In this document: positions 115 through 5,931 of the stretch, piece after piece
Position numbering within the stretch: the stretch's first letter is position 1
Layout of the letters: each line of letters begins with the position of its first letter
Notes under the pieces: generated by a model
Databases searched by the model: none
What the model saw: only the letters and a program-made list of their open reading frames with translations
Told to the model about the DNA's origin: nothing
Position numbers and translations under genes: made by a program
IMG/VR virus record: IMGVR_UViG_2657244943_000011
Strand: one strand, 5' to 3'
DNA from: a virus
Lineage: Duplodnaviria > Heunggongvirae > Uroviricota > Caudoviricetes
DNA length: 8,079 nucleotides

Positions 115-190
115 GCCGATATAGCTCAGTTGGTAGAGCAGCGCATTCGTAATGCGAAGGTCGTAGGTTCGACTCCTATTATCGGCACCA
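115..190 (+). tRNA. thrW: tRNA-Thr (anticodon CGT)
   Basis: 76-nt cloverleaf read directly: acceptor stem GCCGATA pairs with TATCGGC, D-arm GCTC-AGTTGGTA-GAGC, anticodon loop TTCGTAA (anticodon CGT, reads ACG), T-arm GTAGG-TTCGACT-CCTAT, encoded CCA at 188-190. Matches my recollection of E. coli thrW, a known island integration site. Confidence 0.9.
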
Positions 191-356: not shown

Positions 357-1571
357 GTGAAACTCAATGCCCGTCAAATAGACACTGCCAAGCCAAAAGA
401 GAAGGCTTACAAGCTGGCTGATGGTGGTGGTCTGTATCTCTTGGTAAAACCTAGTGGAGGAAAATATTGGCGCTTCAAGTATCGTGTAGCTGGTAAAGAG
501 AAGCTGTTAGCACTAGGTGTGTATCCTGAAGTTACTTTGGCTGATGCTCGTGCAAAACGTGAAGAAGCTAAAAGGGGTATCGCTGGGGGTATCGATCCGA
601 TGGAAGCGAAACGAGAGGAAAAGATTGCCCGGGAAACGCAGTTAAACAACACCTTCAAAGATATTGCCCTTGAGTGGCACAGCAGCAAATTAAAAAAATG
701 GTCTGCTGGTTATGCTTCAGACATCCTCGAAGCCTTCAACAAAGATGTGTTCCCTTACATTGGCAAAAAACCAATCGCCGAAATCAAACCACTTGAACTG
801 CTGAATGTGCTGCGGCGCATCGAGGGGCGCGGTGCTACCGAAAAAGCCAAAAAAGTGAGGCAGCGATGCGGGGAAGTTTTCCGCTATGCAATTGTCACTG
901 GACGTGCTGAGTATAACCCTGCACCGGATCTCACCAGCGCGATGCAAGGTCATGAATCTAATCATTATCCTTTCCTCACAGCCAAAGAATTACCTGATTT
1001 TTTCAAGGCATTGTCCAGTTACTCAGGAAGTGCATTGGTTGTTATGGCGGCTCGTCTACTGATTATCACCGGTTTGCGGACTGGCGAACTGCGCGGTGCA
1101 TTATGGGATGAAATCGATCTCAACAAGGCTATCTGGGAGATACCTGCTTCACGGATGAAAATGCGTCGCCCTCATGTGGTGCCTTTGTCTAAGCAGGCTC
1201 TTTCGCTTATTGGGCAGATTAAAGAATTAACTGGCAATTATCCGCTTATGTTTCCCGGCCGTAATGATCCAAGGAAAACAATGAGCGAGGCTAGCATAAA
1301 CCAAGTATTTAAACGCATCGGCTATAATGGAAAGGTTACTGGTCATGGATTCCGGCACACCATGAGCACCATTTTGCATGAGCAGGGCTATAACACCGCG
1401 TGGATAGAGACGCAGCTCGCACACGTCGATAAAAACTCAATTCGTGGCACATACAACCATGCGCAATATCTGGATGGACGGCGGGAAATGCTTCAGTGGT
1501 ACGCCGATTATATGGATTCGCTCGAGCATGGCGGAAATGTGGTGCATGGTGAGTTCGGAAAATGCGGGTGA
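357..1571 (+). CDS. int: site-specific tyrosine recombinase, P4-type integrase
   Basis: 404-aa ORF, GTG start at 357 with GGAGG 10 nt upstream, TGA stop 1569-1571. N-terminus MKLNARQIDTAKPKEKAYKLADGGGLYL...KYWRFKYR is typical of the P4/CP4-57 integrase arm-binding domain; C-terminal catalytic motifs present (TGLRTGELRG box I, HGFRHT box II, Tyr-containing GTYNHAQYLDGRREM). Directly downstream of a tRNA in the same orientation. Confidence 0.9.
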   Translation: MKLNARQIDTAKPKEKAYKLADGGGLYLLVKPSGGKYWRFKYRVAGKEKLLALGVYPEVTLADARAKREEAKRGIAGGIDPMEAKREEKIARETQLNNTFKDIALEWHSSKLKKWSAGYASDILEAFNKDVFPYIGKKPIAEIKPLELLNVLRRIEGRGATEKAKKVRQRCGEVFRYAIVTGRAEYNPAPDLTSAMQGHESNHYPFLTAKELPDFFKALSSYSGSALVVMAARLLIITGLRTGELRGALWDEIDLNKAIWEIPASRMKMRRPHVVPLSKQALSLIGQIKELTGNYPLMFPGRNDPRKTMSEASINQVFKRIGYNGKVTGHGFRHTMSTILHEQGYNTAWIETQLAHVDKNSIRGTYNHAQYLDGRREMLQWYADYMDSLEHGGNVVHGEFGKCG

Positions 1572-1699
1572 CTGGTTGAGTATACAGTAGTAGACTTTGA
1601 GCGACGAAAGAAAAGGCTGTGTCTAGGGGCGCTCCCGAAAATCCGTACATCTCGACGGACTGGTACAGCCACTACAGTAGAGGACGCTGAGGTGTGCGT

Positions 1700-2497
1700 A
1701 TGATTGATATTCATGCCGAATTAAACGAATACAAAAAAGATTTTATTTCTTTACGTGAATTTCTTGAGGTCGTGCTTAAGGTCGCTGGTGATGATTATGA
1801 TGTTTCAGATGTCATAACTTGGATACTCAGGAGAATAAGCGGAGAACATATCCGCCTGTACACAGTAAATGAATTTAAGCTGTTGGAATCTTTTTGTAAC
1901 CCGTATCGGGATGAATTTGATTATGATGTTCTTTATAGAAATCTGAATGCGGTTCGGAAACGTGGTTGTTTACCTGGTGAGAGGGATGAAAATGGTTTTC
2001 TGGTGTCCGGTTATTGGGAAGATCCCGAATTTGAGAACATTGGATTTATAAGGGGTGAAATTTTCGCAATTTTTCCCGATGTCCTTGACGCGTTAACGAA
2101 GCTGGAAGGCGCTAACTCTTCTGAAAATGACGAGGCACAAGGACGCGATATTGAAAAGAAAGAGTTGCGTACAGAGGATGATTTATTATCCCAAATCGCA
2201 ATGCTGGAAAAAGAAAACGCAGAGTTAAGGGCAAGGATAGAGCAGTTAGAGCAAGAGCGCCCGATACACTTATATAAATACTGGGATAAAGACCCATTAG
2301 CTAAGGCTATTGAGATTAGAAACAGAGAGTGGGCCAATTACGATCCAGAAAATGATTTTGCCACTAGGGGAAATCAAGAAGCGATAACCAGGGAGCTTAA
2401 GCAGTGGGGGGCAAGTAATGCTCTTGCAACGCTCATAGAGAGGACTGCCTGCCCTATTAACCGAGACAACAGCCAAAAGAACGCAAAGCCGGATTAA
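1700..2497 (+). CDS. hypothetical protein, low-GC orphan cargo gene with central acidic linker and coiled-coil segment
   Basis: ORF track frame 1694-2497; I prefer ATG 1700 (GAGG at 1689-1692, 7 nt spacing) over GTG 1694. TAA stop 2495-2497. Three 60-nt samples counted at about 35-42% GC versus about 52% in an int sample. No recognisable catalytic or DNA-binding motif; heptad-like LLSQIAMLEKENAELRARIEQLEQER. Confidence 0.6.
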   Translation: MIDIHAELNEYKKDFISLREFLEVVLKVAGDDYDVSDVITWILRRISGEHIRLYTVNEFKLLESFCNPYRDEFDYDVLYRNLNAVRKRGCLPGERDENGFLVSGYWEDPEFENIGFIRGEIFAIFPDVLDALTKLEGANSSENDEAQGRDIEKKELRTEDDLLSQIAMLEKENAELRARIEQLEQERPIHLYKYWDKDPLAKAIEIRNREWANYDPENDFATRGNQEAITRELKQWGASNALATLIERTACPINRDNSQKNAKPD

Positions 2498-2510
2498 CGC
2501 ACCATACCGC

Positions 2511-2655
2511 ATACCCTGAGGGTGATTTACTGTTACCCTGAGGGTATTTTTTTATCTTCCCCGTCAATTTTACCATCACCCTTAGGGTAGATTTCCTCCC
2601 GATTACCATCACCCTTAGGGTTAATTTCCTTCCGGTAACCATTAGGCCTGAGGGT
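2511..2655. repeat. array of near-palindromic 11-mers ACCCT(G/T)AGGGT including a 33-bp tandem direct repeat; probable regulator/recombinase binding sites upstream of alpA
   Basis: ACCCTGAGGGT at 2513-2523 and 2535-2545; ACCCTTAGGGT at 2578-2588 and 2611-2621; partial GGCCTGAGGGT at 2645-2655. Tandem 33-mers TTACCATCACCCTTAGGGTAGATTTCCTCCCGA (2570-2602) and TTACCATCACCCTTAGGGTTAATTTCCTTCCGG (2603-2635), 29/33 identical. Confidence 0.7.
2535..2554 (+). terminator. possible weak intrinsic terminator after the orphan gene (palindromic 11-mer followed by T7 run)
   Basis: ACCCTGAGGGT followed by A then TTTTTTT (2547-2553), 40-60 nt after the 2497 stop. The stem is short and would need pairing between neighbouring repeat copies, so this is tentative. 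Confidence 0.25.
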
Positions 2656-2724
2656 ATGAAAATATTCGTTATTTCTGTGCCATGATTACCTCGTCAAATT
2701 GAGTAGACGTTATGAGGTAAATAT

Positions 2725-2922
2725 ATGTCAAATACGCTTATTCGTTTAACAGAAGTTCAGCGTAGAACTGGATATAGCAAGGCATGGATTTATCGCCTTA
2801 TGGGGCAAGGTAAATTTCCTGCATCAGTTAAAATTGGCTCGCGAGCTATTGCTTTCGTTGAGAGTGAAATTGACGAGTGGATTAATCAGCGTATTGCTGA
2901 ATCACGCGGAACAGCTACCTGA
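2725..2922 (+). CDS. alpA: AlpA-family (phage Vis/excisionase-like) helix-turn-helix transcriptional regulator
   Basis: 65-aa ORF with GAGGT 6 nt upstream of ATG 2725. Sequence MSNTLIRLTEVQRRTGYSKAWIYRLMGQGKFPASVKIGSRAIAFVESEIDEWI matches the AlpA/Vis HTH pattern as I recall it. Its position after a P4-type int is typical of CP4-57-like and PICI-like islands. Confidence 0.85.
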   Translation: MSNTLIRLTEVQRRTGYSKAWIYRLMGQGKFPASVKIGSRAIAFVESEIDEWINQRIAESRGTAT

Positions 2923-3000
2923 TTAAATGGCTACGGGGCCAGAAGCCCCCAGCTATCCACCAGCAAATAAAAGTAACTTAATTCGATAGCAGGAGTTTTT

Positions 3001-3801
3001 ATGAAACTGCGAAAAACGCCCGTACAGGGGCAGGGCTTCGTTCGGCCTGAAAACCAGAATCTGCAAAATTTCGGCGAAATTATCCCGGTTATTTCCGGCG
3101 TTATTGGCGGGCGTGAAACCAATATTGTTAGCGGCAGAGCGTTGCATAAGGCGTTAGGTGTAGGTCGCGTTTTCCGTTCGTGGATCAAGGGGCGCATTGA
3201 AGAATACGGCTTCACGGAAGGCGTGGATTATGAGGTTGTTGAATATTTGAGCCGACCCGATCCGGTGAGCGCAAAATCTCGCCAGCAAACAGCTCTTGAG
3301 TACATCATTACCGTGAACATGGCGAAAGAACTGGCGATGGTCGAACGCACCGAACAGGGGCGCGCCGTTCGTCAGTACTTCATCAAATGCGAGGAAGAGC
3401 TACACAAGGTTGCGCCTGTACGTTCCGCAGCGTTACGCCGGGAACTGAAAGCCCGTATCACAGTTGCCAGCTACTTTAAGCCAATGTGTGCCGCGCTGGA
3501 GGACTACCGGGCTGAACTGGATAAAAACACTCTACAGCACCACTACACCACGGAAGCCAATATGCTGGCGCGTATCGTGCTGGGTGGCATGACTGCAAAA
3601 CAGTGGGCGCAGGTGAACGGCATCACAGGCGAACCACGCGACCACATGAGCACGTTGCAGCTTGAGCACCTTTCTTACCTTGAGCAGAGCAATATCACGC
3701 TGATTGAGTTAGGCCAGGACTACCACCAGCGGAAGGCTGAATTAATTCGTCTTTCGCAGCGTTGGTTAGCCCGTCGCATGGAGGAAAACAGCCATGTGTA
3801 A
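3001..3801 (+). CDS. phage antirepressor-like protein (AntA/AntB N-terminal domain type)
   Basis: 266-aa ORF, AGGAG 6 nt upstream of ATG 3001, TAA stop 3799-3801. Segment RALHKALGVGRVFRSWIKGRIEEYGFTEGVDYEV...ITVNMAKELAMVERTEQGRAVRQYFIKCEEEL resembles the AntA-type antirepressor N-terminal domain from memory; not verified by search. Confidence 0.6.
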   Translation: MKLRKTPVQGQGFVRPENQNLQNFGEIIPVISGVIGGRETNIVSGRALHKALGVGRVFRSWIKGRIEEYGFTEGVDYEVVEYLSRPDPVSAKSRQQTALEYIITVNMAKELAMVERTEQGRAVRQYFIKCEEELHKVAPVRSAALRRELKARITVASYFKPMCAALEDYRAELDKNTLQHHYTTEANMLARIVLGGMTAKQWAQVNGITGEPRDHMSTLQLEHLSYLEQSNITLIELGQDYHQRKAELIRLSQRWLARRMEENSHV

Positions 3802-4260
3802 CGCTCTGACCGTTACAAAAAGAGAAAGCGCCCCGTTGCCGGAGCGCCTTTGTGAACGAATAGCCTACTGCGCCATATTGCTTACTGTCTACGAGGCAGA
3901 TTATAGCGTTGTGGTCGCACAGAGTGAAGGCGCTGATCACCGTTACTACAGCACGCCAGAAATGCAGAATATTTTGCTGCAAAATGCCGTTGGCCACGCT
4001 GTCCGGAAAGCAAAAAATTTTGCTGGTGGCGCGACTGATGCGATTTTGTCAGGTCGCCAGGTGCTGATCAATCTGATGTCTGATTTCGTTCTGGATAAAA
4101 CAAAGGCGACCGCAGAGAGCCGCCAGTGGAAAAGCTACATACTTGAACGCATCACCAACAATGCCACATTTGCGGCTGGTGGGCAATGTGTCAGCTTTGC
4201 ACCAATGACTCTAGGTTTAACTGAGGGTCATTATGGTGAATATGCTGGCTTGCTGGTGGG
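3794..4260 (+). pseudogene. uncertain ORF / possible gene remnant; good start signals but no credible stop (frame runs on to 5380)
   Basis: ATG 3794 overlaps the upstream stop (ATGTGTAA) and has TGGAGGA 8 nt upstream, the same coupled-junction architecture as real genes downstream. The first ~140 codons look protein-like; beyond about 4200 the translation becomes Cys/Ser-rich and then runs antisense through the minus-strand gene at 4519-4824. The end coordinate is arbitrary. Confidence 0.2.
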
Positions 4261-4518
4261 CTATTCCTGCTCTTTAACATCGCCATGCCGCGATGTTTTC
4301 CAGGTATGCGACCCCATTTTTGTGCGCCTGTACTCTTTAAGGAATTTCTCAAGGATAAACGCACAGGGCGCGAATCTGTCTGACTCATGCTCGTACGCTA
4401 TCTTTCTGCGCTGTCTTTTCCGTGCCGGTGATGGTGTATTGGTTGATTCTTTGTTGGTCATGGCGCTGCCCTGTAAAACGATGCACCGTAGTTCCTCACA
4501 CCACGGCGCTGGTGATGG

Positions 4519-4824
4519 TTACTCCTGTTCTTTGGCCTTGCGCCGCTGGAGTTCTTCACGCGCGACGGTGACGAGTTGCCCGATCTCCTCGGCTGCTTTG
4601 ACACCGATTTTTTCCACCTGCGCCAGTGCATCGAGCGAAGAAACCAGGGGATTTTCTCCGCTTCCTTCTGCCTGGCGGCGGGCGATTTCACCGCGAACGG
4701 CTGTAATCACGAAAGCGGCTATTGTTTCCCCTTCCGTTTTCGAATTTTCCATTTCCTCGATTACATCATGGGGGAAGCGGATATTTTTCATTTGCGATCT
4801 GCTGTTGATGTTTCCTGTTGCCAT
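4519..4824 (-). CDS. putative ribbon-helix-helix (Arc/MetJ/CopG-like) DNA-binding regulator
   Basis: 101-aa minus-strand ORF with well-formed composition, unlike the plus-frame translation of the same DNA. N-terminal KNIRFPHDVIEEME followed by helical GETIAAFVITAVRGEIARRQA fits a beta-strand/helix/helix RHH pattern. Divergent from the small-gene operon across a palindrome-rich intergenic region. Start could be ATG 4824 or the internal ATG 4791; neither has a strong SD. Confidence 0.5.
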   Translation of the reverse strand: MATGNINSRSQMKNIRFPHDVIEEMENSKTEGETIAAFVITAVRGEIARRQAEGSGENPLVSSLDALAQVEKIGVKAAEEIGQLVTVAREELQRRKAKEQE

Positions 4825-5014
4825 CAGAATGTCCGGTTATTTTGAGGTGTGTACACATTACACCAAAAGGTGTGTTGATAAAACACTTGACACTGTAGCA
4901 CACTTAAATCTAATCTGTGTATACACTAATGATTGTGGTGTATATACAGCAACGCCCCGCAGTGGTGGCACACATGCAGGGCGTCTAACCAAACCGTTAA
5001 ACGAGGTAACGATT
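4825..5014. promoter_or_regulatory. divergent promoter/operator region with three perfect 10-bp palindromes
   Basis: TGTGTACACA (4848-4857), GTGTATACAC (4917-4926), TGTATATACA (4939-4948); additional GGTGT/ACACC half-sites; consensus -35 hexamer TTGACA at 4887-4892 and TTGATA at 4875-4880. AT-rich relative to flanks. Confidence 0.5.
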
Positions 5015-5380
5015 ATGGCTGGAACACAGCATACCCAAACTCACCCTAAATTTATATACACCTTCCTGGCGGTGCACCGTGATTGCATAGCTGACGGTAA
5101 AAACACTGTACACGTAGCCGCTGATACGCTGGTTGATGCCTGCGAGATGCTCAATGACATGGGCTATATCTCGGCAACATGGAAAGGGCGCGAAGAAAAC
5201 ACGCTGTTTATTCAGAAATGCGAGAACAATTTTATCTGGCGTTTTATCGCCCTGAGCACAGCACAACCGCGCGTAATTCACATCGAGGCCACCAGCGAAC
5301 AGGAAGCGCGTCAGCAATCTCCTGATGGCTGCGTGATGGTATTCGCTGCCCGTATTCGCCAGGAGGTGCACCATGCATAA
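5015..5380 (+). CDS. hypothetical protein (first gene of small-gene operon)
   Basis: ATG 5015 with GAGGT 7 nt upstream, TAA stop 5378-5380; 122 aa. In frame with the run-on ORF 3794-5380 but with its own initiation signals. Stop overlaps the next start. Confidence 0.6.
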   Translation: MAGTQHTQTHPKFIYTFLAVHRDCIADGKNTVHVAADTLVDACEMLNDMGYISATWKGREENTLFIQKCENNFIWRFIALSTAQPRVIHIEATSEQEARQQSPDGCVMVFAARIRQEVHHA

Positions 5381-5738
5381 CCTGTCAATTTATGACCTTA
5401 ACAGCATTCAGTTTCGTGAGAAATTCACCGAGCAGCTACTGGTTAACGTGGAGAATGGACGCGTGGTAAGTAATTATCACCTGCCGGATGGTGCAATTGC
5501 CGGAAGCGTTGAAGCATTGCTGGAACTGGCAGAACGTGCGCGACTTATTAAGCCGTTAACGAACCATCACGATGATGATCTGCATTTTACCGGACGCATG
5601 GTGAGTCACTACGAAAACGGCGTCGAGGTATCCCGCGAACGGCTGCGTGATGATTGCTGTTTCGGAACACTGCCGGAATTTAGCGAACTGCTGACCCGTT
5701 GCGATTACCGGATCATTCAGGGGGGAAGTCATGGGTAA
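5373..5738 (+). CDS. hypothetical protein
   Basis: 121-aa ORF; strong SD AGGAGGT (5361-5367) 5 nt before ATG 5373; 8-nt overlap ATGCATAA with upstream stop; TAA stop 5736-5738. Confidence 0.65.
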   Translation: MHNLSIYDLNSIQFREKFTEQLLVNVENGRVVSNYHLPDGAIAGSVEALLELAERARLIKPLTNHHDDDLHFTGRMVSHYENGVEVSRERLRDDCCFGTLPEFSELLTRCDYRIIQGGSHG

Positions 5739-5931
5739 TCAGCCAGCAACAATGACAATTACCCTGAATGTGCCAGATGATTTCACCGGGCGCGTACTGG
5801 TTTACCTGGATAAAGGGAAAGTGAAATCACAATGCCGACTGCGAAATAATGAAATTGTAAGTACGGTAGAAGGCTTTTCTGAACTATGTATTCGTGCAGG
5901 AATAAAACCGGAACTGCTGACAGGAAAATAA
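5731..5931 (+). CDS. hypothetical small protein
   Basis: 66-aa ORF; start overlaps upstream stop (ATGGGTAA); purine-rich GGGGGGAAG just upstream; TAA stop 5929-5931. Confidence 0.6.
   Translation: MGNQPATMTITLNVPDDFTGRVLVYLDKGKVKSQCRLRNNEIVSTVEGFSELCIRAGIKPELLTGK

What the first reader, a model, noticed from the sequence alone, without database searches (positions are those of the whole stretch)
1694..2497. Low-GC orphan gene wedged between integrase and alpA: candidate accessory or anti-phage cargo
The 265-aa ORF is compositionally distinct: about 35-42% GC in three 60-nt samples I counted, against about 52% in a sample of the adjacent integrase. That suggests separate acquisition. The protein has no motif I recognise: an N-terminal region of about 140 aa, an acidic linker (SSENDEAQGRDIEKKELRTEDD), a heptad-like coiled coil (LLSQIAMLEKENAELRARIEQLEQER) and an 80-aa C-terminal region. 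Integrase-proximal variable slots in P4-family satellites and related islands are known to carry defence or helper-interference genes, so a stand-alone gene of unknown family here is a plausible candidate. Function is not established by anything in the sequence.
Basis: partly seen in the sequence, partly recalled or inferred. Interest (0 to 1): 0.75.

Follow-up and report, generated by a model that had tools for sequence, protein, structure and literature searches.

The report
Satellite regulator gene with operator array
The "orphan" gene between the integrase and alpA of this E. coli phage satellite belongs to an unannotated protein family that always travels with a phased array of ACCCTnAGGGT palindromes just upstream of alpA, so it looks like a swappable DNA-binding switch for the satellite's master activator rather than an anti-phage cargo gene.

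Summary
The ORF is real (ATG 1700 to stop 2497, 265 aa; RefSeq WP_000565286.1). It lies in a thrW-inserted, EcCIMP1-like phage-inducible chromosomal island, not a P4-type satellite. Its GC is lower than the integrase's, but less so than claimed (41.4% against 47.7%). It is not an orphan: 171 of 5426 complete E. coli genomes carry it, and its roughly 70-aa C-terminal domain defines about 113 clusters at 50% identity, none covered by Pfam, NCBIfam, PHROGs or PADLOC.

New here:
- The family has variable, sometimes separately encoded, N-terminal modules, then a coiled coil, then the conserved C-domain.
- An AlpA-like gene follows in 62 of 64 viral-contig loci.
- Three to seven tACCCTnAGGGTa palindromes fill the gap, spaced at about 2, 3, 4 or 5 helical turns. 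They track the protein, not the AlpA type (40/52 against 0/28).
- The Rfam int-alpA RNA motif (1616-1683) is the leader of whatever gene sits in this slot.
- Other islands carry unrelated slot proteins, most with their own repeats; none matches a defence model.

Best reading: an exchangeable DNA-binding regulator gating alpA. Binding and its sign are inferred, not shown.

The parts
115..190 (+). tRNA-Thr (CGT), thrW; integration site and left junction of the island
   Evidence: ARAGORN and Rfam tRNA. proA-thrW-int synteny in NZ_AP021914. EcCIMP1 uses the same site (PMC11773190).
357..1571 (+). Tyrosine integrase, 404 aa
   Evidence: Pfam Arm-DNA-bind_3, Phage_int_M and Phage_integrase.
1616..1683 (+). 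Rfam RF02996 'int-alpA RNA' motif; in practice the 5' leader of the slot gene, ending 16 nt before ATG 1700
   Evidence: 44.2 bits against a gathering score of 35.8. The motif ends about 15-20 nt before the first slot ORF in 11 of 14 loci scanned, including the DUF6387 and L010-type slots. It was found in 17 of 20 IMG/VR loci. It is absent where the slot is empty (L009).
1700..2107 (+). ORF265 N-terminal module (aa 1-136): acidic alpha/beta domain, variable or separately encoded across the family; proposed input or sensor module
2108..2257 (+). Acidic disordered linker (aa 137-158) and coiled-coil helix (aa 159-186)
   Evidence: AF2 pLDDT below 50 for residues 140-158, and a single helix at H159-186. 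Only sub-threshold bZIP/DivIC-type coiled-coil matches.
2258..2497 (+). Conserved C-terminal domain (aa 187-258; motif ..DPLxLAIxIRNxxWxxYD..AxAIExVACPIxR), short tail and stop codon; proposed DNA-recognition module
2512..2656 (.). Array of five palindromic sites tACCCTnAGGGTa at 2512-2524, 2534-2546, 2577-2589, 2610-2622 and a degenerate one at 2644-2656; proposed operators
   Evidence: Four perfect ACCCTNAGGGT matches within 109 bp against 0.13 expected in the window, and none elsewhere in the 33-kb locus L001. Centre spacings are 22, 43, 33 and 34 bp. Across loci the spacings cluster at 21-24, 31-34, 41-44 and 53-55 bp. The array co-occurs with the protein family, 40/52 against 0/28.
2689..2717 (+). 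alpA leader hairpin (CCUCGUC...AUGAGG) whose 3' arm contains the alpA Shine-Dalgarno sequence
   Evidence: The Shine-Dalgarno sequence lies wholly or partly in the 3' arm of the MFE hairpin in 21 of 21 divergent alpA leaders, with different stem sequences (CUCGUAA/UUACGAG, CUCCUGU/ACAGGAG, CACCUU/AAGGUG, CCUCCCUG/CAGGGGG).
2725..2922 (+). alpA (65 aa), master activator of Gram-negative PICIs; the gene the cassette is coupled to
   Evidence: Pfam Phage_AlpA, 2.4e-19. An AlpA-like ORF starts 27-260 nt after the family gene in 62 of 64 IMG/VR loci. AlpA's role is taken from PMC6092414 and PMC11773190.

Best explanation
ORF265 is a modular, sequence-specific DNA-binding regulator of the satellite.

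Proposed mechanism:
- The conserved C-terminal domain, dimerised or oligomerised through the coiled coil, occupies the phased array of tACCCTnAGGGTa sites. The array starts just after the gene's own stop codon and runs up to the putative -10 region of the alpA promoter.
- By sitting there it gates transcription of alpA, the auto-activating master switch of Gram-negative PICIs. The most likely effect is negative, either as a repressor or as a roadblock that insulates alpA from int and slot-gene transcription.
- The variable N-terminal module, sometimes encoded as a separate protein, is the input domain. It could couple release to a helper-phage cue, in the way SaPI Stl repressors work.
- The gene is translated from a conserved structured leader, Rfam int-alpA (RF02996).

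Shown here: the family architecture, its near-obligate linkage to alpA, the co-occurrence of array and protein, the helical phasing of sites, the independence of the array from AlpA type, and the link to the leader RNA.

Inferred: that the protein itself binds the sites, the sign of regulation, and the sensing role of the N-terminal module.
For: 1. Array statistics. Four perfect ACCCTNAGGGT sites lie within 109 bp, against 0.13 expected in the window, and there are none elsewhere in 33 kb. Half-sites are enriched over dinucleotide shuffles in 9 of 12 family loci.

2. Co-occurrence over a large evolutionary distance. The array follows the gene in Escherichia, Salmonella, Kluyvera, Xenorhabdus and Yersinia and in unassigned metagenome and viral contigs. 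That covers 17 of 19 distinct loci of subfamily A, 8 of 8 of subfamily B, and all three subfamily E loci (L024, L089, L090), which lie in prophage-like contexts.

3. AlpA-anchored control sample of 80 loci:
   - Family present with at least 2 sites: 40.
   - Family present without such sites: 12. All nine of these examined belong to a divergent C-domain subfamily with different repeats (AGTGssCACT/GGTGG) at the same place.
   - Family absent with sites: 0 of 28.

4. The array is not made of AlpA sites. L010 and L011 have near-identical AlpA sequences, by inspection of the sequences, but only L011, which has the family gene, has the array. Loci with AlpA 97-100% identical to the window's carry different arrays according to the slot protein.

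5. The array is not made of integrase arm sites. Integrases 95% identical to the window's (L008, L009) lack it, while 64-66% identical ones (L002, L005) have it.

6. Site spacings cluster at 21-24, 31-34, 41-44 and 53-55 bp, putting sites on one face of the helix. That argues for cooperative protein binding to DNA rather than an RNA function.

7. The constant motif goes with the constant C-domain while the N-terminal modules vary or are split off. The motif changes where the C-domain changes (L013 has ACTATnATAGT; subfamily F).

8. An AlpA-like gene follows in 62 of 64 loci. The last site abuts a conserved TATGAAAAT element (putative -10) upstream of the conserved alpA leader.

9. Other slot families show the same layout with their own repeats: ACTTCCAAA (3-7 copies in the cluster 0 loci; looser A(C/T)TTC(C/T)A repeats, seen by eye, in the L010-type cluster 3), ACCGCAATTGCGGT in two copies, and TGCATGCA.

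10. Background from the literature: alpA is induced by the helper phage by an unknown route, and no repressor is known for Gram-negative PICIs (PMC6092414; PMC11773190).
Against: - There is no direct evidence of DNA binding.
- The C-domain is about neutral (median net charge 0) and the whole protein is strongly acidic (pI 4.7, net -19), which is atypical for a DNA binder.
- The slot can be empty (L009, and a small ORF in EcCIMP1) and such islands are still inducible (PMC11773190). The protein therefore cannot be a universal PICI repressor.
- In subfamily E prophages the array sits about 250 bp upstream of the next promoter's operators rather than on it.
- Two adjacent palindromes followed by a T-run could act partly as an intrinsic terminator.
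- Subfamilies C and D have a single long inverted repeat or terminator-like hairpin instead of arrays.
- The loci are phylogenetically related, so the counts are not independent events.
- No sigma-70 promoter was detected by the simple scan, so site positions relative to the transcription start are guesses.
Confidence: 0.45

Rival explanations
1. Anti-phage or helper-interference cargo. ORF265 would be a stand-alone defence or interference protein carried in a variable hotspot. The N-domain would sense or attack a phage component, and the palindromes would be only its own regulatory or terminator elements.
For: - The slot is variable, with unrelated alternative genes and an empty state.
- The gene has lower GC and a mosaic history.
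- Subfamily E members sit directly behind a putative cI-like gene (by inspection; no Pfam match) in prophage immunity regions. This is the position rexAB occupies in lambda, where exclusion genes are common.
- EcCIMP1 confers superinfection immunity by an unmapped determinant (PMC11773190).
- One family member has a weak EAD9 (effector-associated domain) match.
Against: - There is no PADLOC match for ORF265, for 5 homologues, or for about 10 alternative slot families. Genuine defence hotspots usually contain a good share of recognisable systems.
- No enzymatic or membrane effector domain is present. The conserved part is a 70-aa helical domain.
- The near-obligate pairing with alpA (62/64) and with a cognate phased array is not expected for cargo.
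- In the matching complete genome (L001), the recognisable defence gene (SIR2, PDC-S25) is at the other end of the island.
Confidence: 0.15
2. A positive or architectural factor. The protein would bind the array upstream of a weak alpA promoter and activate it or bend the DNA, acting as co-activator with AlpA. The N-module would switch it on when a helper phage is present.
For: - Most sites lie upstream of the putative -35 region, at about -50 to -150 if the -10 is TATGAA at 2655-2660. That is typical of activators and enhancer-like arrays.
- The putative -35 is poor, and PalpA is known to need activation (PMC6092414).
- The linkage to alpA is the same as in the main model.
Against: - The promoter-proximal site overlaps the spacer and -10 region, which usually represses.
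- AlpA alone suffices to induce EcCICFT073 (PMC6092414).
- Islands with an empty slot are still inducible (PMC11773190).
- In subfamily E prophages there is no alpA downstream.
Confidence: 0.15
3. The protein does not bind DNA. The array would be bound by a host or other element factor, or would act as RNA or a terminator. The conserved C-domain would dock onto a protein partner such as RNA polymerase, AlpA, the integrase or a phage protein, and the acidic protein would act as an anti-factor or DNA mimic.
For: - The protein is acidic overall (pI 4.7) and the C-domain is neutral.
- No fold match to DNA-binding domains.
- The most conserved residues (E247, C251, P252, R255, W211) could form a protein-binding or catalytic patch.
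- Palindrome pairs followed by T-runs can form terminator-like hairpins.
Against: - Strict co-inheritance of the array with the C-domain persists across elements that share no other genes: PICIs with different primases and prophage-like contexts, in hosts from several enterobacterial genera and in unassigned contigs.
- The motif changes when the C-domain subfamily changes.
- Helical phasing of site spacing argues for a DNA-level function.
- The motif sequence is conserved while the surrounding sequence is not, which is not expected for terminators.
Confidence: 0.15
4. Centromere-like partition or replication element: a small dimeric protein binding phased repeats next to its gene, as ParR/ParG or iteron systems do.
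For: Phased repeat arrays next to the gene of a small coiled-coil protein resemble parC/ParR or omega-type centromeres.
Against: - No ParA or ParM partner is annotated in the island.
- PICI origins with iterons lie downstream of pri-rep (PMC6092414), not beside alpA.
- The element is integrated.
- The specific linkage to alpA is unexplained.
Confidence: 0.03

Closest known systems
SaPI Stl / Gram-positive PICI Rpr master repressors
   Same: A satellite-encoded regulator next to int. It is highly diverse between islands and modular, with one part for DNA and one part for sensing a helper-phage protein. It controls the switch that starts the satellite cycle (background in PMC6092414).
   Different: - Stl is divergently transcribed from the genes it represses and uses an N-terminal HTH domain.
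- ORF265 is co-directional with alpA. Its conserved, putatively DNA-binding domain is C-terminal and of unassigned fold. Its target would be the promoter of an activator (AlpA).
- No sequence or fold similarity was found.
- Binding and derepression are untested.
Phage immunity modules (repressor plus cognate operator sets; heteroimmune variants)
   Same: - Exchangeable protein and operator cassettes with different specificities sit at one conserved genomic position.
- Multiple phased sites imply cooperative binding.
- Subfamily E members sit inside a prophage immunity region.
   Different: - There is no HTH_3/cI-type domain and no LexA-like cleavage domain.
- The sites lie 3' of the gene rather than in a divergent promoter region.
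- The element is a satellite whose switch is an activator.
Rfam RF02996 int-alpA RNA motif (to my recollection first described in Weinberg et al. 2017, NAR 45:10811; function unknown)
   Same: The window contains a bona fide member at 1616-1683 (44.2 bits), between int and alpA as the name implies.
   Different: Here and in more than 25 related loci the motif is not adjacent to alpA. It ends about 15-20 nt before the start codon of the variable slot gene, whichever family that is, and is absent when the slot is empty. It therefore behaves as that gene's 5' leader. I did not find this relation in the papers searched.
P4-satellite defence hotspot
   Same: An integrase-proximal position with alternative, unrelated genes between conserved flanks.
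   Different: - The island is PICI-type, not P4-type.
- None of the slot occupants examined matches a known defence model.
- Most occupant families come with their own DNA repeat set in front of alpA.
EcCIMP1 (E. coli MP1 PICI at thrW; PMC11773190)
   Same: The same integration site (tRNA-Thr between proA and the yagU side), the order int then alpA, an antirepressor-like gene, a primase and a PerC-family gene.
   Different: EcCIMP1 has only a small ORF (EcCIMP1_002, mis-annotated as UvrB-like) between int and alpA. It has no ORF265-family gene, and no palindrome array is described.

Membership tests
Known anti-phage defence systems (PADLOC-DB v2) | Significant match of the protein to a defence-system HMM | tested here: not met
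   No PADLOC family at E of 0.1 or better for ORF265. Among homologues only L006 gave a match, a marginal coiled-coil hit to LmuB.
Known anti-phage defence systems (PADLOC-DB v2) | The position behaves as a defence hotspot: alternative occupants include recognisable defence systems | tested here: not met
   DUF6387, the L010-type protein, subfamily F and 6 further slot families all gave no PADLOC match. In L001 the SIR2 (PDC-S25) gene lies at the far end of the island.
Known anti-phage defence systems (PADLOC-DB v2) | Confers phage resistance when expressed | not testable with these tools
   Needs plaque or efficiency-of-plating assays.
P4-family satellite | Presence of psu, delta and sid capsid-size genes and P4 alpha-type primase organisation | tested here: not met
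   The RefSeq annotation of the whole island (L001) lists int, AlpA, AntA, an Icd-like gene, DUF4222, a DUF927 primase, ProQ/FinO and PerC, with no psu, delta or sid. This rests on annotation only; no dedicated HMM search was run.
Gram-negative PICI (EcCIMP1/EcCICFT073 type) | Co-directional int, alpA and primase; about 10-20 kb; tRNA or other specific att site; no structural or lysis genes | tested here: met
   L001 carries about 14-15 kb between thrW and IS3, with the gene content listed above. The att site is the same as EcCIMP1's.
Gram-negative PICI (EcCIMP1/EcCICFT073 type) | Excision, replication and packaging induced by a helper phage | not testable with these tools
   Experimental.
SaPI Stl-type master repressor | Recognisable DNA-binding domain (HTH) | tested here: inconclusive
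SaPI Stl-type master repressor | Cognate operator sites in the regulatory region it controls | tested here: met
   A phased tACCCTnAGGGTa array lies between the gene and alpA and co-inherits with the protein. That the protein occupies the sites is inferred.
SaPI Stl-type master repressor | Divergent transcription from the repressed operon | tested here: not met
   int, ORF265 and alpA are all on the + strand.
SaPI Stl-type master repressor | Derepression by binding a helper-phage protein | not testable with these tools
   Needs genetics or pull-downs.
Rfam RF02996 int-alpA RNA (for the 1616-1683 element) | Covariance-model score above the curated gathering threshold | tested here: met
   44.2 bits against 35.8, full-length model match 1-71.
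bZIP transcription factor (PGAP label in one RefSeq genome, hit H112) | A basic DNA-contact region immediately N-terminal to the leucine zipper; Pfam bZIP above threshold | tested here: not met
   Pfam bZIP_2 E = 0.027, 15 bits against a cut-off of 22.3. The segment before the helix is acidic (SSENDEAQGRDIEKKELRTEDD), and linker plus coiled coil carry a net charge of -8.
DUF6387 (PF19924), occupant of the same slot in other islands | Sequence or profile similarity | tested here: not met
   hhalign probability 0.3%. There is no Pfam match for ORF265.

The most novel reading that the evidence does not exclude
The int-alpA slot of Gram-negative PICIs encodes the missing master regulators of these satellites. 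It would be a collection of at least 10 unrelated, exchangeable DNA-binding proteins, with the ORF265 family the commonest in the sample. Most come with a cognate operator array in front of alpA, and the seven slot families tested (all but the subfamily E and L013-type loci) are translated from the RF02996 leader. The variable N-terminal module of ORF265-type proteins would be the helper-phage sensor that sets which phage can induce the island, making it a functional analogue of SaPI Stl built on a new DNA-binding fold. This would explain how helper phages switch on alpA, which has been open since 2018, and would give RF02996 a function.
Probability: 0.3. Interest if true: 0.8.

Novelty: new variant of a known kind. 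Interest (0 to 1): 0.62.

Why it matters
In Gram-negative phage-inducible islands alpA is the master activator, and it is switched on by the helper phage through an unknown route. The founding paper states that the existence of a repressor is unclear (PMC6092414).

A protein-plus-operator cassette placed exactly between the constitutive integrase unit and alpA is a concrete, testable candidate for that missing control layer. It exists in many swappable specificities, which fits the role.

The analysis also:
- defines a new, unannotated protein domain family with a predicted DNA motif;
- assigns a genomic role, as the 5' leader of the slot gene, to an orphan Rfam motif (int-alpA);
- warns against labelling integrase-proximal variable genes as defence cargo by position alone.

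The gene is present in about 3% of complete E. coli genomes, and a variant about 93% identical occurs in O104:H4 2011C-3493.

Tried and rejected
Protein-level searches that gave nothing:
- Pfam, NCBIfam, PHROGs and PADLOC on ORF265 and on 26 and 95 family members returned only coiled-coil noise and sporadic single-member hits. One of these was an artefactual LacI-type hit on the non-member P0090.
- PDB sequence searches with two C-domain profiles found nothing meaningful.
- Foldseek against PDB with the full model gave no hit with E below 1.

Searches that failed or were limited:
- The AFDB50 library was not available.
- The GTDB genome scan returned only two loci.
- RNAalifold on a heterogeneous alignment of alpA leaders predicted nothing because MAFFT misaligned them. 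I replaced it with per-sequence folding.
- MFE folding of the 1600-1715 leader region is no better than shuffles (z = -0.17), so the RNA motif rests on the Rfam covariance score only.
- The sigma-70 scan found no + strand promoter in 1400-3050.

Readings considered and rejected:
- The palindromes are AlpA sites. Natural controls contradict this.
- They are integrase arm sites. They lie 2.3 kb from attL and do not follow the integrase type.
- They are a replication origin or iterons. The location is wrong and they also occur in prophages.
- ORF265 is a bZIP factor. The pre-helix region is acidic.
- It is related to DUF6387 or the L010-type slot protein. hhalign probability is below 1%.
Full report
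**1. What is at the coordinates**

The window opens with tRNA-Thr(CGT) at 115-190. A 404-aa tyrosine integrase follows at 357-1571, then the ORF in question, a 65-aa Phage_AlpA protein at 2725-2922, an AntA/AntB-type protein at 3001-3801, a DUF4222 protein, and the start of a primase gene.

The window is 100% identical to E. coli WP2-W18-CRE-03 over the first 3.8 kb tested. There it is the left end of an island of about 14-15 kb between thrW and an IS3. That island also encodes an Icd-like protein, a DUF927 primase, ProQ/FinO, PerC and, at its far end, a SIR2 protein with a partner.

The att site and gene order are those of the PICI EcCIMP1 (PMC11773190). They are not those of P4, and no psu, delta or sid gene is annotated.

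**2. Checking the observation**

- The ORF is real. The mechanical ORF starts at GTG 1694 (267 aa). The 265-aa form starts at ATG 1700, has a GAGG about 9 nt upstream, and is the RefSeq protein WP_000565286.1.
- GC is 41.4% for the ORF (38.8% in its first 420 nt), 47.7% for the integrase and 49.0% for the window. alpA (42.4%) is equally low.
- AlphaFold2 with a 26-sequence alignment confirms the layout: a folded N-domain at residues 1-140, a disordered acidic linker at 140-158, one long helix at 159-186, and a helical C-domain.
- No curated library recognises the protein.
- It is not an orphan. There are 43 homologues in the 90%-clustered collection, and the gene occurs in 171 of 5426 complete E. 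coli genomes, always on the chromosome.

**3. Family anatomy**

Aligning the homologues shows that conservation is concentrated in the last 70 or so residues..DPLxLAIxIRNxxWxxYD...AxAIExVACPIxR. The coiled coil precedes this region, and the N-terminal 140-230 residues are variable or unalignable.

A profile of the C-domain, searched against 1.84 billion representative proteins, finds only 113 clusters. The domain is at or near the C-terminus of proteins of about 65-515 aa in nearly all of them. Pfam scans of 95 members give no shared family.

Many members are split into two adjacent genes. An N-module of 101-150 aa ends 12-30 nt before a 150-155-aa protein carrying the coiled coil and C-domain. 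The two halves are therefore separable modules.

At the DNA level, the window and L002 are 90-94% identical up to the start codon and again from 2603 through alpA-antA. The C-domain coding part is 80% identical, and the N-module part does not align at all. This is a recombination mosaic.

**4. Context**

Every family member whose surroundings could be read lies immediately upstream of an AlpA-like gene.
- This holds in the E. coli, Salmonella, Kluyvera, Xenorhabdus and Yersinia loci and in several metagenomic contigs. It holds even where there is no integrase upstream and terminase genes lie there instead.
- In 64 analysable IMG/VR loci found with the C-domain pattern, 62 have an AlpA-like ORF starting 27-260 nt after the stop codon.
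- The two exceptions, together with L024/L025, belong to a divergent subfamily (E). That subfamily sits directly behind a putative cI-like gene (an HTH by inspection; no Pfam match) in a prophage immunity region, which has its own ATCAAATTGAT operators.

**5. The palindrome array, the main new observation**

The 227-bp gap between ORF265 and alpA holds four perfect ACCCTNAGGGT palindromes and a fifth degenerate one, at 2512-2656.
- Chance expectation is 0.13 for the window, and there is no other copy in the 33-kb locus.
- The same motif, in 3-7 copies starting within a few bases of the stop codon, follows family genes of subfamily A (17 of 19 distinct viral-contig loci), subfamily B (8 of 8) and subfamily E (L024, L089 and L090). 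The surrounding sequence in these loci is unrelated.
- The logo is tACCCTnAGGGTa.
- Centre-to-centre spacings fall into four groups, 21-24, 31-34, 41-44 and 53-55 bp, which is 2, 3, 4 or 5 helical turns. This phasing argues for cooperative protein binding on one face of the DNA rather than an RNA function.

**6. Controls: which protein does the array go with?**

- Not the integrase. L008 and L009 have integrases 95% identical to the window's and no array. L002 and L005 have integrases only 64-66% identical and do have it. The array is also 2.3 kb from attL.
- Not AlpA. L010 and L011 encode near-identical AlpA proteins, but only L011, which has a (split) family gene, has the array.
- A sample of 80 viral contigs was chosen only by AlpA similarity. 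In it, 40 of 52 loci with a family gene have at least two sites within 300 nt upstream of alpA, and 0 of 28 loci without one do.
- All nine examined of the 12 family-positive loci without sites belong to a divergent C-domain subfamily (...AVNLVLRPxxLxxIGRRxKK). They carry different repeats (AGTGssCACT/GGTGG-type) at the same place, even though the AlpA proteins of L114-L118 are 97% identical to the window's.
- Another divergent branch (L013) has ACTATnATAGT palindromes of the same 5-1-5 geometry.

The motif stays constant while N-modules vary, and it changes when the C-domain changes. The most economical explanation is that the C-domain, paired through the coiled coil, recognises the sites.

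The loci are related, so these counts overstate the number of independent events. L009, which has an empty slot, also shows a few isolated half-sites.

**7. The slot and its leader RNA**

Rfam finds the int-alpA RNA motif (RF02996) at 1616-1683, with 44.2 bits against a gathering score of 35.8.
- It ends 16 nt before ATG 1700.
- The same motif ends about 15-20 nt before the first slot ORF in 11 of 14 loci scanned. These include slots holding a DUF6387 protein (L008) or an unrelated 294-aa protein (L010).
- It is missing in L009, where the slot is empty.
- It was found in 17 of 20 further viral-contig loci.

The motif therefore behaves as the 5' leader of whatever gene occupies the slot. This explains why the 130 bp after int are conserved between islands with different slot genes.

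The slot is truly variable.
- In complete E. coli genomes the ORF265 type is in 171 genomes, the DUF6387 type in 86 and the L010 type in 1.
- The AlpA-anchored sample adds at least 8 unrelated families of 230-380 aa. None has a PADLOC match and only DUF6387 has a Pfam match.
- Most of these families also have their own repeats between the gene and alpA. ACTTCCAAA occurs in 3-7 copies in the cluster 0 loci, with looser A(C/T)TTC(C/T)A repeats visible by eye in the L010-type cluster 3. ACCGCAATTGCGGT occurs twice, and there are TGCATGCA palindromes and GGAGTTATCA inverted repeats.

The general pattern is: leader RNA, then a variable protein, then a cognate repeat set, then alpA.

**8. Mechanism proposed**

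From the literature:
- AlpA is the auto-activating master switch of Gram-negative PICIs.
- Its over-expression causes runaway induction.
- Its transcription is triggered by the helper phage, not by SOS, through an unknown route.
- No repressor is known (PMC6092414; PMC11773190).

I did not find a paper describing this family, the array, or a Gram-negative PICI repressor.

I therefore propose that ORF265 is a DNA-binding gatekeeper of alpA.
- The C-domain and coiled coil occupy the phased operators.
- The last operator abuts a conserved TATGAAAAT element, a putative -10, upstream of the conserved alpA leader.
- This would repress PalpA, or block read-through from int and ORF265 transcription.
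- The variable N-module would be the input that releases the block.

Against this:
- There is no fold match to DNA-binding proteins.
- The C-domain is neutral and the whole protein is very acidic (pI 4.7).
- The slot is empty in inducible islands.
- In subfamily E prophages the array is about 250 bp from the next operators.
- Subfamilies C and D have one long inverted repeat or a terminator-like hairpin instead of an array.
- The sign of regulation cannot be read from sequence.

I put 0.45 on the regulator-gating-alpA model as stated, and somewhat more on the narrower claim that the protein binds the array.

**9. Rivals**

- The defence-cargo reading keeps some weight (0.15). The slot is variable, subfamily E sits in a rex-like position, and EcCIMP1 has an unmapped superinfection-immunity function. 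Nothing specific supports it, however, and the cassette logic is unexpected for cargo.
- An activator or architectural role (0.15) remains open.
- A reading in which the protein does not bind DNA and the array is bound by something else (0.15) also remains open.
- A partition or origin function is unlikely (0.03).

**10. Verdict**

Its 'variable slot' intuition is right, and its functional guess is not supported.

What is there is a new, unannotated modular protein family coupled to a predicted operator array and to alpA, sitting behind the Rfam int-alpA leader. This is a new variant of a familiar kind, the mobile-element immunity or regulatory module. It offers a direct experimental handle on an open question in satellite biology.

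Noticed in passing
window 1616-1683 (+); also L002 7917-7984, L008 7631-7698, L010 7624-7691, L020 3219-3284 and others: The Rfam int-alpA RNA motif (RF02996, function unknown) ends about 15-20 nt before the start codon of whichever gene fills the int-alpA slot. It is absent when the slot is empty (L009). It looks like a cis-acting 5' leader of the slot gene rather than a free-standing sRNA.
   Followed up: partly
window 2689-2717 (+), just upstream of alpA ATG 2725: A hairpin in the alpA leader has a 3' arm that contains the Shine-Dalgarno sequence. In 21 of 21 divergent alpA leaders the Shine-Dalgarno sequence is wholly or partly paired in the MFE fold, with compensatory stem changes (CUCGUAA/UUACGAG, CUCCUGU/ACAGGAG, CACCUU/AAGGUG, CCUCCCUG/CAGGGGG). 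This suggests translational control of alpA.
   Followed up: partly
L121-L170 (IMG/VR loci chosen by AlpA), e.g. L133 2160-2349, L121 2138-2253, L123 2491-2614: At least 8 unrelated protein families occupy the same slot, and most have their own repeated DNA motif before alpA (ACTTCCAAA 3-7 copies, ACCGCAATTGCGGT two copies, TGCATGCA, GGAGTTATCA inverted repeat). By eye, several (clusters 0, 1, 3, 6) seem to share a C-terminal motif resembling ..LLxLIxGL...NKSAI.. that was not analysed.
   Followed up: partly
L016 4659-5462, L018 4302-5477, L031 2426-3222, L011 3417-4213, L012 3520-4201: Many family members are split into two adjacent, probably translationally coupled genes: an N-module of 101-228 aa, then a 150-158-aa protein with the coiled coil and C-domain. 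The two GTDB representatives (Kluyvera, Xenorhabdus) are of this kind, so these are not sequencing frameshifts.
   Followed up: partly
L024 3526-5282, L025, L090: Distant family members (subfamily E) lie directly after a 125-aa putative cI-like (HTH by inspection; no Pfam match) gene in a prophage immunity region. ATCAAATTGAT operators flank both sides, and four (A/G)CCCTnAGGG(T/C) sites follow right after the stop codon. This is the position rexAB occupies in lambda.
   Followed up: partly
L001 25890-28608 (- strand), far end of the same island in NZ_AP021914: A 498-aa SIR2-family protein matches PADLOC candidate system PDC-S25 (E = 4e-139) and sits next to a 374-aa hypothetical protein. This is probably the island's real defence cargo.
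   Followed up: no
window 3001-3801 (+): The AntA/AntB-type protein has a C-terminal half (aa 171-255) matching PADLOC candidate PDC-S22 (E = 8e-10) and a weak Tin match. It belongs to the domain-swapping Bro/Ant network downstream of alpA.
   Followed up: no
window 3794-5380: The 528-aa mechanical ORF here is probably spurious. RefSeq annotates a YlcI/YnfO-family gene and a small hypothetical gene on the minus strand, plus an Icd-like gene on the plus strand. Related islands carry isrK and C4 (P4 CI-like immunity) RNAs in the equivalent zone (L009, L010, L011, L016), but no such RNA was found in this window at E of 0.1 or better.
   Followed up: no
window 5373-5931 (+): Two adjacent small ORFs (121 aa and 66 aa) both match phrog_340, and the 121-aa one matches it twice. 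This is a tandem duplication of a domain of unknown function.
   Followed up: no
hit H112 (NZ_CM142775.1) and H114 (NC_018658.1, O104:H4 2011C-3493): PGAP labels one copy of this protein 'bZIP transcription factor', a coiled-coil artefact. A variant of the C-domain plus array region, about 93% identical, is present in the 2011 German outbreak strain.
   Followed up: no
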